Source of the DNA: Promethearchaeota archaeon
GTDB lineage: Archaea; Asgardarchaeota; Lokiarchaeia; Sigyniarchaeales; SOKP01
Assembly (NCBI GenBank): GCA_048940445.1
Contig: JBHLON010000005.1
Span: 32,001 to 96,000 of the forward strand
Length of the DNA: 64,000 bases
Direction: 5' to 3'
Each line of letters starts with the position of its first letter. Position 1 is the first letter of the stretch. This document shows positions 12,078 through 16,526 of this stretch, in pieces. Both the position numbers and the translations under genes were made by a program. Under the pieces are notes generated by a model. That model saw only the letters and a program-made list of their open reading frames with translations, was not told where the DNA came from and did not search any database.

Positions 12078-12764
12078 GTGGAGTATATGGTCAAGATTGG
12101 AGATTACGTTATAAATCCAACCAAAATTATATGTATTGGTACAAATTACATGGATCATATTGAAGAAACCAAATTGGATATACCTGAAGAACCTGTATTG
12201 TTTCCAAAGACTCCAAATTGTTTGATATTAAATGGAGATCCAATCGTATATCCCAAATGGTTATATAATAATAGTAAATATAACCGAGTTGACTATGAAG
12301 TTGAATTAGCTTTCATTGTAAAGGATAAATGCAAATACGTAAGTGAAGACAATGCATATGAACATATCCTTGGTTATACTGTTTTTAATGATATCACTGC
12401 ACGTAAGATGCAAGCTAAAGATATTGTATCTAAGTTTCCCTGGTTTCGATCAAAATCTTTTGACACATTTGGACCAATAGGTCCTATTATTAAAAATGTT
12501 GAAAGTATAGAAGACCCCCATAATTTAGACATTGAATTAAAGGTAAATGGAGTAATTAAGCAATCATCAAACACAAAATTTTTACTATTTAAAATCCCAG
12601 AATTATTAGAATATATAACAAAATTTTTTACAATGCAAAGAGGAGATATTATTGCTACGGGAACTCCTGGAGGCATAGGTCCTATCAATCCGGGTGATTT
12701 AATTGAAGCAAAAATTGAAGATATCGGAATACTTACAAATAAAGTAGTTTTAGAAGGAGAGTGA
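12078..12764 (+). CDS. Fumarylacetoacetate hydrolase family protein, copy 1
   Basis: KIICIGTNYMDH, DYEVEL, NDITAR, KSFDTFGPIGP, GDIIATGTPGG. Confidence 0.93.
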   Translation: MEYMVKIGDYVINPTKIICIGTNYMDHIEETKLDIPEEPVLFPKTPNCLILNGDPIVYPKWLYNNSKYNRVDYEVELAFIVKDKCKYVSEDNAYEHILGYTVFNDITARKMQAKDIVSKFPWFRSKSFDTFGPIGPIIKNVESIEDPHNLDIELKVNGVIKQSSNTKFLLFKIPELLEYITKFFTMQRGDIIATGTPGGIGPINPGDLIEAKIEDIGILTNKVVLEGE

Positions 12765-12773
12765 ATATCTAAA

Positions 12774-13448
12774 ATGAAAATTGGGGATGATTCAATTAAT
12801 CCTACCAAAATATTGTGTCTAGGGAGGAATTATTTAGAACATATTAAAGAAACAAAAGCACCAATACCTAAAGAACCAGTGTTTTTTGTTAAGACAATAA
12901 ATACGTTAATCACGGATAATAAGCCGATTATTTACCCGAAAATATTGTATCAAAATAACGAGTTTAACAGAGTAGATCATGAAGTCGAACTTGCATTTGT
13001 TATTAAGAAGAAATGTAAACACATTCCAGCGCAATATGCATATGATTATATAAAAGGTTATACCATACTTCTTGATCTAACTGCTCGAAATATGCAAGTA
13101 GCTGATAGAAACATTAATCTTCCTTGGTATAGGAGCAAGAATTTTGATACATTCGCTCCAATAGGACCTGTAATAAAAGAAGTTAATGAAATAAAAGCTC
13201 CTCATAATCTTAATATTGAGTTAAAGGTGAATGGAGAAACCAAACAGTCCTCTAACACTAAATATATGATTTTTAAGATTCCTGTAATTTTGGAATATCT
13301 TTCAAAGTTTGTCACTTTAGAAAAAGATGATATTGTTGCTACAGGGACTCCAAGTGGAATATCACCAATTTATCCTGGAGATACCATTGAAGCTTCGATT
13401 GAAAATATAGGAACCATTACCCACACGGTGATTTTAGAAGAAATATAG
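12774..13448 (+). CDS. Fumarylacetoacetate hydrolase family protein, copy 2
   Basis: KILCLGRNYLEH, DHEVEL, LDLTAR, KNFDTFAPIGP, ATGTPSG. Confidence 0.93.
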   Translation: MKIGDDSINPTKILCLGRNYLEHIKETKAPIPKEPVFFVKTINTLITDNKPIIYPKILYQNNEFNRVDHEVELAFVIKKKCKHIPAQYAYDYIKGYTILLDLTARNMQVADRNINLPWYRSKNFDTFAPIGPVIKEVNEIKAPHNLNIELKVNGETKQSSNTKYMIFKIPVILEYLSKFVTLEKDDIVATGTPSGISPIYPGDTIEASIENIGTITHTVILEEI

Positions 13449-13719: not shown

Positions 13720-13977
13720 CCTCTAAAAATTTATGTCCCTTAATTAATAAAAATTCTGAATAAAGAAAAGAATCGTAATAAAATTTTTTAATATTGCTAT
13801 ATTTTTAATCATACTAAGTACAAAATATACTTCTAAAGGACTTAGGACGCAAATTAAAGCGGTTTCGATATAAAATATATATCGGGATGAAAAAGATCGA
13901 TAAAGAATTTAATTGAACGTTCTTAATCTTTTGAGTATATTTTAACATAAAATTATTTAGCAAAACGGTGAAATTAA

Positions 13978-14542
13978 TTGAGTACTAAAGGAAGATTGGT
14001 TGTAAAGGCTCTTGTGACTGGTGGGAGAGTTATAATTTAACATTCGTTTAGAATAAAACCCCGAATGCGTCAGGAGGGCCACCCATAGGTCCAGCTGTAG
14101 GTCCAACAGGCATAAAATTAAAATCTTTTCGATTTTTTGTGCAAATATAAAAGATGTCGTTGATGCGGTCAATGAAAAAACGATGATCTTCAAGGGCCTA
14201 ACAGTTCCGGTTAGGATTGAATGTGATCCTGAGACTAAACAATTTGAAATTTTTGTTGAAACTCCAAGTACTGCCTCTCTTCTCCTGAAGGAACTGGGCG
14301 TTGAGAAAGGGATTACTTCAGCTTCAGAATCAAAGATTGGTAATCTAACATTGGAACAGGTAATGGCTGTTGCAACCGCTAAGAAAGAGAAATTTTTGGA
14401 CAAAACTTATAGAACTGCTGTGAAAACTGTATTAGGTACAGCGTTATCAATAGGAGCTACCGTTGAAGGAGAAGATCCACGAGTAATTCAAAAAAAAATT
14501 GAAAATGGGGAATTTGATGATAGAATTAAGGGTGAGATGTAA
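13978..14542 (+). CDS. rpl11: 50S ribosomal protein uL11, split by two introns; exons 13978-14027, 14066-14115, 14145-14542 (165 aa)
   Basis: Spliced translation MSTKGRLVVKALVTGGSASGGPPIGPAVGPTGINIKDVVDAVNEKTMIFKGLTVPV... gives the complete uL11 N-terminus; TTG start after GGTG; first gene of the L11-L1-L10-P1 cluster. Confidence 0.93.
14028..14065 (+). other. Putative BHB-type mRNA intron 1 in rpl11 (38 nt)
   Basis: Central helix TGGG(14022-25)/CCCG(14060-63), bulges AG^A and AA^T, intron hairpin starting GTT/AAC; excision yields GGG AGT GCG in frame. Confidence 0.85.
14116..14144 (+). other. Putative BHB-type mRNA intron 2 in rpl11 (29 nt)
   Basis: Central helix GCAT(14110-13)/GTGC(14139-42), bulges AA^A and AA^A, intron hairpin AAAATC/GATTTT; excision yields GGC ATA AAT ATA in frame. 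Confidence 0.8.
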
Positions 14543-14545
14543 GAC

Positions 14546-15274
14546 ATGAAGTTAGATGATAAAATGTTAAGAAAATCAGTTAGCGCTGCTATTAAATTTT
14601 CAGTAAAGCAAAAAAAAGGGTCTAAAGATAAAGTTAGAAACTTTGATGAGAGTATAGATTTCATAGTAAATCTTAAAGATCTAAATTTAAATGACCCAAA
14701 ACAAAGAATTGATAAAGAAATCCTTTTACCCAACAATGTTCTAATCTCTGAAAAGCCAAATGTATGTGTGGTTGCTTCAGATGAAATTCTCTTGGAGGCA
14801 AAAAATTTAGGATTAGATACTTTGGATGAGGAGGGTCTTGTAAGATTAAATAATGAAGAGAAAAAGTATAAAAAAAAATTTGTTAAAAAGTATGATTTTT
14901 TTATCGTTGAAGACAAAATGATGCCAAATCTAGCTCGATATCTTGCTAGGTTTTTAGGACCAGTTGGTAAAATGCCAAAACCTTTCCCTAGTGGATATGG
15001 AATAATATCAAGTCCAGAAGATTTAAAAGTTGCAGTAGATCGGTATTTAAAAGCAATTCGAATTCAACTAAAGAAACAACCTCAGATACAAGTTAAAATC
15101 GGAAAGAAATCAATGGAAAAGAAAGAGGTTATTGAGAATTTAAAAACTGTTGTTGATTATATTGCAGAACAAATGCCCCATAAATATAACAACATTAAAT
15201 CCATGTATCTTAAAACAACAATGGGCCATCCTGTTAAAATTGATGAACAGCATTTAAAATCAATAGAGGTGTAA
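14546..15274 (+). CDS. rpl1: 50S ribosomal protein uL1
   Basis: RNFDESIDFIVNLK, LGPVGKMPKP, MYLKTTMGHPVKI. Confidence 0.96.
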   Translation: MKLDDKMLRKSVSAAIKFSVKQKKGSKDKVRNFDESIDFIVNLKDLNLNDPKQRIDKEILLPNNVLISEKPNVCVVASDEILLEAKNLGLDTLDEEGLVRLNNEEKKYKKKFVKKYDFFIVEDKMMPNLARYLARFLGPVGKMPKPFPSGYGIISSPEDLKVAVDRYLKAIRIQLKKQPQIQVKIGKKSMEKKEVIENLKTVVDYIAEQMPHKYNNIKSMYLKTTMGHPVKIDEQHLKSIEV

Positions 15275-15278
15275 ATAA

Positions 15279-16166
15279 TTGATTGGAAAAAAAGCTATTC
15301 CACAATGGAAGAAAAAAGAAGTTAATAGTTTAATAGATTTGTTTAAAAATAATAAAAATATCGCGGTAATTGAAGTTGCTAATTTAAATGATAGACAAAT
15401 TCAAGAAACAAGAAAACTTTTAAGAGGAAAAGCGATTATTAGAATGTCTAAAAAGAATCTACAGTTAAGGGCCATTGAAGAATTTAAAAAAGAATCAAAA
15501 AATTCAAATTTAGAAGAATTTGCGGAGAATATTCCTGGACAATCAGCCTTATGTTTTACAAATATGGATATTTTCGAATTAAAGAAGATTTTTAATGAGA
15601 ATGAGTGGATGGTTCCCGCGAAACCGGAGGAAGTAACTCCAGTAGATATTTGGGTTCCAGCCGGAGATACGGGATTACCTACTGGTCAGGTAATATCTGA
15701 GTTAAATATGACCTTGAAATTGCCAACAAGAATACAAAATGATACTATTTGGATAAGAGATGATACCAGAACACATAAAGCAGGAGATGTTGTTGATGTT
15801 AAACAAGCTGCAGTTTTGAAAAAGTTAGGAATTAAACCTATTGAATCATTAATTAGGATACATTCTGCTTGGAGCGATGGCGAGATTATACCCGAAGATA
15901 TTCTATATATGAATTTAGATCAGTTTAAGCAAGATCTTACAAAAGCTCATAGAGAAGCTCTCGGAATACTATTTGAAATCCCTGTTTTATTTGAAGATAT
16001 GACAAAAGAATATCTCCAAAAAGCAGTTGCAAGTGCTAATTTATTAAGTGCGATTATCTTTGGAGAAGGTTTGCAAGAAACTCCCAAGGTAGAACCTAAA
16101 GTTGAAGAAAAAGAATCTGAAGAAGAAGAAGAAGAACAAGTTGGTATAGGAGGTTTATTCGGCTAA
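15279..16166 (+). CDS. rpl10: 50S ribosomal protein uL10 (P0)
   Basis: IPQWKK, DIWVPAGDTGLPTG, LKKLGIKP, acidic C-terminus ending GIGGLFG. Confidence 0.96.
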   Translation: MIGKKAIPQWKKKEVNSLIDLFKNNKNIAVIEVANLNDRQIQETRKLLRGKAIIRMSKKNLQLRAIEEFKKESKNSNLEEFAENIPGQSALCFTNMDIFELKKIFNENEWMVPAKPEEVTPVDIWVPAGDTGLPTGQVISELNMTLKLPTRIQNDTIWIRDDTRTHKAGDVVDVKQAAVLKKLGIKPIESLIRIHSAWSDGEIIPEDILYMNLDQFKQDLTKAHREALGILFEIPVLFEDMTKEYLQKAVASANLLSAIIFGEGLQETPKVEPKVEEKESEEEEEEQVGIGGLFG

Positions 16167-16232
16167 ATTTTTCAACTGAAAATAAATTAAGAATTAAAAA
16201 TTATTGAAATTAAGAATTGGAGGTTATAAAAT

Positions 16233-16526
16233 ATGGAATCAATTTACGCTGCTTTATTGCTACATAAAGCCAATAAAAAGATTACAGAATCAAACTTAGA
16301 AAAGGTTTTAGAGGCGGCTGGTTCTAAAATCGACAAAGCAGAACTCACTAAGCTTATAGCAGGTTTAAAGGAGGTCAAACTTGAGGATATCATTAAATCC
16401 GCTGGCTCTGCTCCTGTTATGACAGCCCCAAGTGCAGCACCTAAAGTAGAAAAGAAAGAAAAAAAGAAGAAAAAAGAAGAAGAAGAAGAGGAAGAAGAAC
16501 CAACTGGTATTGGGTCACTTTTCTAG
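16233..16526 (+). CDS. rpl12: Ribosomal stalk protein P1 (aL12)
   Basis: MESIYAALLLH, acidic tail ending GIGSLF. Confidence 0.96.
   Translation: MESIYAALLLHKANKKITESNLEKVLEAAGSKIDKAELTKLIAGLKEVKLEDIIKSAGSAPVMTAPSAAPKVEKKEKKKKKEEEEEEEEPTGIGSLF

What the first reader, a model, noticed from the sequence alone, without database searches (positions are those of the whole stretch)
13978..14185. Ribosomal protein uL11 gene interrupted by two BHB-type (tRNA-like) mRNA introns
Seen: the ORF track only finds a truncated 119-aa uL11 from 14183. The missing conserved N-terminus is present upstream in three different frames: MSTKGRLVVKALVTGG, ASGGPPIGPAVGPTGI and NIKDVVDAVNEK. The pieces are separated by AT-rich hairpin insertions of 38 and 29 nt, and unspliced reading stops at 14038 and 14148. 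Each insertion has a 4-bp exon-intron helix flanked by 3-nt bulges (TGGG/CCCG with AG^A and AA^T; GCAT/GTGC with AA^A and AA^A). Applying the standard EndA cleavage rule (after the 2nd bulge nucleotide) removes exactly 14028-14065 and 14116-14144, giving a gap-free 165-aa uL11. Known: archaeal EndA/RtcB splice BHB introns, and the classic protein-gene case is crenarchaeal cbf5. Inference: this Asgard lineage splices a multi-intron ribosomal-protein mRNA with a 50-nt internal exon. I am not aware of this being described, but could not check the literature.
Basis: partly seen in the sequence, partly recalled or inferred. Interest (0 to 1): 0.96.

Follow-up and report, generated by a model that had tools for sequence, protein, structure and literature searches.

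The report
Two tRNA-type introns split Asgard uL11
The only gene for ribosomal protein uL11 in this Loki-type Asgard archaeon is cut into three pieces by two tiny inserts shaped like tRNA introns, so its messenger RNA almost certainly has to be spliced by the tRNA-splicing enzymes, which the papers I could search confirm inside only one other archaeal coding gene (cbf5).

Summary
Confirmed. Removing 14028-14065 and 14116-14144 gives a gap-free 165-aa uL11, the genome's only copy. DNA contigs from four studies carry both inserts. Among 54 genomes of the same family, 26 carry 37 such inserts at four fixed uL11 sites (up to three per gene). All splice to open frames, and 35/37 keep the 4-bp helix, with a compensatory change at a synonymous exon base. 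The short upstream exons are under strong purifying selection. The genome encodes an intact two-subunit EndA, with the loop lysine that lets the Aeropyrum enzyme cut relaxed motifs, and RtcB. Five more genes (purA, mevalonate kinase, Lsm, GH38, AIR-synthase-like) carry like inserts, checked against intron-free orthologues. Close relatives that differ in intron content differ across a ~100-nt tract, so introns come and go by recombination. No RNA run was available: splicing is inferred (~0.92), not seen. I found no paper on it. This scan has already noted the same phenomenon, uL11 included, on other Asgard DNA.

The parts
13967..13971 (+). Shine-Dalgarno-like GGTGA, 6 nt before the TTG start
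   Evidence: sequence; a similar GGTGA lies before the start in several relatives
13978..14027 (+). uL11 exon 1 (TTG start, aa 1-16 plus two bases of Ser17)
   Evidence: aligns to intron-free orthologues
14022..14025 (+). 5' strand of central helix of BHB 1 (exon)
   Evidence: pairs with 14060-14063; T-A/T-G versus A-T compensatory change across 12 carriers
14028..14065 (+). intron 1, 38 nt, 26% GC, phase 2, in-frame TAA at 14038, hairpin interior
   Evidence: same site in 12 of 54 family genomes, three genera
14066..14115 (+). uL11 exon 2, 50 nt (end of Ser17 codon to first base of Asn34)
   Evidence: G000 vs G029 (both carry both introns) 18 synonymous, 0 non-synonymous differences in aa 8-46
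14110..14113 (+). 5' strand of central helix of BHB 2 (exon)
   Evidence: pairs with 14139-14142; GCAT in all 14 carriers, but only a minority of intron-free alleles
14116..14144 (+). intron 2, 29 nt, 21% GC, phase 1, 6-bp hairpin with a TTTTC loop
   Evidence: same site in 14 of 54 family genomes
14145..14542 (+). uL11 exon 3; contains the 119-aa ORF from ATG 14183 (Met47, no SD) that gene callers report
14546..16526 (+). rest of the operon: uL1, uL10, P1/P2 stalk protein, ORFs uninterrupted
   Evidence: identities read from the translations; Pfam L1 and L10 on orthologous loci
13812..13890 (+). conserved structured 5' leader candidate (three stems, two with compensatory changes) behind a TATA-like box at about 13784
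   Evidence: 32 distinct family loci; no Rfam match; link to splicing not shown

Best explanation
Both inserts are real mRNA introns of the archaeal tRNA type. After transcription of the uL11-uL1-uL10-P1 operon, the last exon bases pair with the intron's 3' end to form a 4-bp helix between two 3-nt bulges. [quoted passage not shown] Until both are removed ribosomes stop at codon 21 or just after intron 2. The introns have no ORF and are neutral passengers, tolerated because splicing is exact. They sit in the most conserved stretches of core genes and are gained or lost when a ~100-nt tract is swapped by recombination with alleles of related species. SHOWN: anatomy, genomic reality, family-wide distribution, covariation, selection, enzymes present, mosaic tracts. 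INFERRED: cleavage by EndA, ligation by RtcB, neutrality, recombination as the route of gain and loss.
For: Single uL11 in a 93%-complete genome. 37 inserts at 4 sites in 26 of 54 family genomes, found by motif-free spliced alignment; all leave a stop-free frame, 35/37 have 4/4 central pairs. Compensatory pairs at synonymous exon bases: uL11 site 1 T-A/T-G (7) versus A-T (5); mevalonate kinase GGTG/CACT versus GGCG/CGCT. pN/pS 0.077 for aa 8-46 in carriers versus 0.125 in intron-free genomes. EndA alpha (C3:34241 region) best matches Aeropyrum EndA (E 3e-38), with Tyr/His/Lys triad and the loop Lys44/Arg46 conserved; Lys44 gives broad specificity (PMC3241643). Second EndA subunit and RtcB intact. 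Five further genes with inserts inside conserved motifs, intron-free in relatives. Mosaic tracts: G030 vs G010 30/99 differences around the introns, 14/330 downstream, Fisher P 1e-11; three other pairs P 2e-9 to 3e-4.
Against: No spliced read or peptide was examined. Outer helices are weak and intron 2 prefers an extended hairpin in silico. Genomes are related, so counts are not independent events and the Fisher P values overstate. Synonymous sites are near saturation. From my own knowledge, uL11 is dispensable in some bacteria, so this gene alone does not force splicing. Some intron-free pairs also show the mosaic 5' tract, so the tract shows recombination, not its direction.
Confidence: 0.92

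Rival explanations
1. The gene is a decaying pseudogene, or only an N-terminally truncated uL11 is made from Met47 (ATG 14183).
For: A 119-aa ORF with ATG exists and is what databases annotate. It would keep the rRNA-binding C-terminal domain (own knowledge).
Against: Exons 1-2 are more conserved at protein level than exon 3 in carriers (pN/pS 0.077; 18 syn/0 non-syn between two carriers). SD and TTG are kept at exon 1, with no SD at Met47. No second copy. The same kind of insert splits the WGDEGKGK motif of purA and the GEH motif of mevalonate kinase in 8/30 and 20/29 loci.
Confidence: 0.02
2. Ribosomes hop over the inserts (translational bypassing) or shift frame, with no RNA cutting.
For: AT-rich hairpins with early stops resemble bypass elements (own knowledge); intron 2 has ATA codons on both sides.
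Against: No matched take-off/landing codon at intron 1. The ATA-ATA hop would drop Asn34-Ile35, whereas all 14 carriers rebuild an Asn codon across the junction. Hopping does not explain a fixed 4-bp exon-intron helix with 3-nt bulges and compensatory changes in every gene.
Confidence: 0.03
3. The inserts are removed at RNA level but by another enzyme or self-splicing, or are excised from DNA.
For: EndA activity was not tested here.
Against: 28-38 nt is too short for group I/II ribozymes. No GT-AG ends, no target duplication or terminal repeats, no second copy in the genome. No contig of this species skipped either insert exactly (contigs drop rare variants). Geometry equals the EndA rule in all cases.
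Confidence: 0.02
4. Assembly or sequencing artefact.
For: The genome is a metagenome bin of 139 contigs.
Against: Contigs from four studies cross both inserts without gaps; homologous inserts occur in 25 other genomes.
Confidence: 0.005

Closest known systems
cbf5 pre-mRNA intron of Desulfurococcales/Sulfolobales (Watanabe 2002; Yoshinari 2006; Yokobori 2009, PMC2738675)
   Same: Short insert in a coding sequence, relaxed BHB, cut between 2nd and 3rd bulge base by hetero-oligomeric EndA, splits a conserved codon, lineage-specific presence.
   Different: cbf5 is one gene, one site, one ancient gain with a few losses. Here there are four sites in one gene, up to three introns per gene with exons as short as 21-50 nt, at least six genes in one genome, another phylum, and rapid turnover with co-exchanged flanks. 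Splicing is confirmed for cbf5, only inferred here.
Multiple non-canonical tRNA introns of Asgard archaea (bioRxiv 10.64898/2026.10.13.758758) and Thermoproteales
   Same: Small BHB introns gained repeatedly at many sites; most Asgard genomes have two EndA paralogues.
   Different: That work covers tRNA genes only (no occurrence of 'mRNA' or 'cbf5' in its text) and its intron-rich families are Jordi-/Atabeyarchaeia. No tRNA-intron donor was found for these inserts.
Haloferax HVO_1309 5' UTR intron (Schwarz 2020, PMC7714728)
   Same: EndA-processed BHB intron in an mRNA.
   Different: In a UTR, not in a reading frame. The paper names cbf5 as the only other mRNA case.
Eukaryotic XBP1/HAC1 unconventional splicing (own knowledge)
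   Same: Endonuclease cut plus tRNA ligase (RtcB in animals) removes a ~26-nt frame-shifting intron from an mRNA.
   Different: Cut by IRE1 at stem-loops, regulated, one gene; no evidence of regulation or common descent here.

Membership tests
Archaeal BHB (EndA-spliced) intron | 4-bp central helix between exon end and intron end | tested here: met
   4/4 in both; 35/37 across family, with covariation
Archaeal BHB (EndA-spliced) intron | Two 3-nt bulges with cuts after the 2nd base giving the correct mature RNA | tested here: met
   junctions match intron-free orthologues exactly; stop-free in all 54
Archaeal BHB (EndA-spliced) intron | Flanking helices on both sides (strict hBHBh') | tested here: not met
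   inner helix present, outer exon-exon helix weak for these two sites. This is the relaxed form, as for cbf5 (PMC2738675), so it lowers 'canonical BHB', not 'EndA substrate'
Archaeal BHB (EndA-spliced) intron | Host has EndA able to cut relaxed motifs, and a ligase | tested here: met
   two EndA subunits, triad and loop lysine conserved, RtcB intact; by sequence only
Archaeal BHB (EndA-spliced) intron | Spliced RNA or excised circle observed; cleavage by EndA | not testable with these tools
   no RNA holder listed for this stretch
cbf5-type mRNA intron (strict) | Located in the catalytic Asp codon of cbf5 | tested here: not met
   host gene is uL11; unrelated sites
Group I/II or spliceosomal intron | Ribozyme core or GT-AG ends | tested here: not met
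   29-38 nt, ends AG..AA and AA..AA; no Rfam match
Homing BHB intron (rRNA type with LAGLIDADG ORF) | Intron-encoded homing endonuclease | tested here: not met
   no room for an ORF; only the flanking co-exchange signature is shared. A trans-acting nuclease was not searched

The most novel reading that the evidence does not exclude
Loki-type Asgard archaea run a genome-wide, spliceosome-free mRNA splicing system in which ORF-less BHB mini-introns actively spread between species into the most conserved codons of core genes by homing-like gene conversion, giving multi-exon genes with exons of 21-50 nt in the sister group of eukaryotes.
Probability: 0.3. Interest if true: 0.95.

Novelty: new variant of a known kind. 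Interest (0 to 1): 0.86.

Why it matters
Archaeal coding-sequence splicing is known from one gene. Multi-intron, multi-gene endonuclease splicing in Asgard archaea would show that interrupted genes and an obligatory splice-before-translate step exist without a spliceosome or nucleus in the closest prokaryotic relatives of eukaryotes. That makes the conflict between coupled translation and splicing directly testable. Practically, core marker genes are mis-called in these genomes: public uL11 entries are N-truncated or start inside the intron (P0032, P0036, P0037). This affects completeness estimates, phylogenomics and claims of missing enzymes.

Tried and rejected
RNA evidence: no RNA holder listed; this is no evidence either way. 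I searched for a full-length uL11 of this species in protein collections as a proxy for an RNA contig and found none (best full-length 84% identity). Four intron-free full-length relatives traced to contigs include the upstream divergent gene, so they are genomic alleles, not transcripts. De novo genome-wide BHB scans were swamped by operon junctions and antisense frames, so no genome-wide intron count is claimed. A motif-free test of 148 G000 ORFs with orthologues (many from a 400-kb sample of G249; some are antisense shadows) found only uL11 x2, purA and Lsm as clean inserts and missed the known mevalonate kinase one, so intron-bearing genes look rare, a few percent at most. ARAGORN found only 13 tRNAs, so tRNA introns could not be compared properly; BLAST of the inserts against the genome gave only chance 13-18-nt hits. 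Rfam: nothing. One Pfam call and one genome search failed on my frame errors; my first translation was off by one base and was corrected. A recalled paper on split reads in archaeal RNA-seq (Doose 2013) is not held, so candidate mRNA introns reported there could not be checked. Precise loss through the cell's own cDNA was considered and is disfavoured for the closest pairs, because flanks differ far more than the rest of the gene.

Full report
1. Observation. The window holds the uL11-uL1-uL10-P1 operon on the + strand, and ORF calling finds only a 119-aa uL11 from 14183. Joining 13978-14027, 14066-14115 and 14145-14542 gives 165 codons and a stop, without gaps against orthologues. Read unspliced, the frame stops at 14038. 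With only intron 1 removed it stops at 14148, and with only intron 2 removed it still stops at 14038. It is the only uL11 in the 3.64-Mb, 93%-complete genome. Logan contigs from four studies cross both inserts without gaps (records X1-5, X2-19, X5-23, X13-9), so they are genomic. Homologues are labelled Promethearchaeota/Lokiarchaeota by NCBI, which places the organism among Loki-type Asgard archaea.

2. Anatomy. Each insert has a 4-bp helix between exon bases -6..-3 and intron bases -6..-3, two 3-nt A-rich bulges and an AT-rich hairpin inside. The exon-exon outer helix is weak, so these are relaxed motifs. In shuffles of the insert, with five registers allowed, helix plus first inner pair plus bulge A arises in about 3% for each intron.

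3. Relatives. A motif-free spliced alignment of uL11 in 54 genomes of the same family found 37 inserts of 28-38 nt in 26 genomes, at only four positions: after CDS base 50 (12 genomes), 71 (8), 83 (3) and 100 (14). Seventeen genomes have one, seven have two and two have three; 28 have none. All splice to open frames and 35 have a full central helix. At site 50 the first helix pair is T-A or T-G in seven genomes and A-T in five: the intron follows a synonymous change in the exon. Carriers use a narrow set of exon codons next to the junction, while intron-free alleles vary freely. In the phylum-wide search of 221 genomes, split uL11 matches appeared only in this family among the listed rows; 74 rows were not listed.

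4. Selection. For residues 8-46, which would be untranslated without splicing, pN/pS is 0.077 among carriers and 0.125 among intron-free genomes; for residues 47-160 it is 0.21 and 0.23. G000 and G029, which both carry both introns, differ at 18 synonymous and no non-synonymous positions there. Pairs are not independent and pS is near saturation, but the short exons are clearly translated.

5. Machinery. The genome has two EndA paralogues and one RtcB, all with open frames. The 201-aa subunit best matches Aeropyrum pernix EndA (E 3e-38) and keeps the Tyr-His-Lys triad and the loop Lys44/Arg46. In Aeropyrum Lys44 confers cleavage of relaxed motifs (PMC3241643), and this enzyme type splices cbf5 mRNA (PMC2738675). 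The 205-aa paralogue lacks the histidine and looks like the structural subunit.

6. Not only uL11. Scans of this genome turned up 30-31-nt inserts of the same build in purA (C134:73775-73804, splitting the Asp codon of WGDEGKGK), mevalonate kinase (C78:74261-74291), an Lsm protein (C26:3313-3343), a GH38 mannosidase (C78:67401-67430) and an AIR-synthase-like gene (C61:8911-8940); gene names are read from the motifs. These were found through the motif, so their fold is not independent evidence, but intron-free orthologues confirm each junction: carriers are 8/30, 20/29, 1/29, 2/5 and 3/6 loci. The mevalonate kinase helix shows a second compensatory change. A dnaG candidate (C67:4642-4678) was seen by motif only.

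7. How they come and go. On a uL11 tree the four sites need 11, 6, 2 and 12 changes (a single-gene tree that includes the mosaic tract, so rough). Pairs only 2-7% apart in the 3' part of the gene but with different intron sets are 12-33% apart in the first 100 bases, almost all synonymous. Most equally close pairs with the same set are 0-7% apart there; a few intron-free pairs are mosaic too. Introns therefore change hands with a tract of flanking DNA from a divergent allele, as in gene conversion or homing, and not by clean loss through the cell's own cDNA. Whether this drives spread, loss or both is not shown.

8. What is known. My searches found cbf5 as the only confirmed archaeal coding-sequence intron, with others merely predicted (PMC2738675). 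They also found a 5' UTR intron in Haloferax (PMC7714728) and a 2026 preprint on Asgard tRNA introns that does not treat mRNA. Subscription journals are not searchable, so novelty is relative to that library. Earlier notes of this scan report the same kind of intron in many Asgard genomes, uL11 included, and two mention RNA support on other DNA. I could not test those and do not count them as evidence.

9. Verdict. Real, and very probably spliced by EndA and RtcB (0.92). It is a new variant of a known kind: the chemistry is that of cbf5, while the multi-intron genes, many host genes, Asgard host and tract-wise turnover are not described in what I could read. The missing step is a spliced read.

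Noticed in passing
window 13784-13890 (+): TATA-like box followed by a conserved three-stem RNA element 90-165 nt upstream of uL11, present in 32 distinct family loci, with compensatory changes in two stems (CGC/GCG versus CGT/ACG; CGATAT/ATATCG versus CAATAT/ATATTG); single copy in the genome, no Rfam match. Candidate ribosomal-protein leader.
   Followed up: partly
L001-L063, L162-L165, uL11 CDS bases 22-120: The 5' 100 bases of uL11 are a recombination mosaic among close relatives, also between some intron-free pairs such as G034/G010 and G026/G028.
   Followed up: partly
G000 C134:73775-73804, C78:74261-74291, C26:3313-3343, C78:67401-67430, C61:8911-8940 (L064-L068): Five more BHB inserts in conserved motifs of purA, mevalonate kinase, Lsm, GH38 and an AIR-synthase-like gene, confirmed against intron-free orthologues.
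   Followed up: yes
G000 C67:4642-4678: 37-nt BHB-like insert in a dnaG-like motif; not compared with relatives.
   Followed up: no
P0032, P0036, P0037 and many 119-142-aa entries: Public uL11 annotations of this family are N-truncated or begin inside an intron.
   Followed up: partly
G000 whole genome: ARAGORN finds only 13 tRNAs, all called with introns and several mis-typed, suggesting heavily interrupted tRNA genes.
   Followed up: no
window 12078-13448 (-): Two adjacent, similar fumarylacetoacetate-hydrolase-like genes lie divergently upstream of the operon, apparently a tandem duplication (read from translations).
   Followed up: no
L018 (G035), L162 (G218): Two genomes of different genera carry three uL11 introns, leaving internal exons of 21 and 29 nt.
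   Followed up: partly
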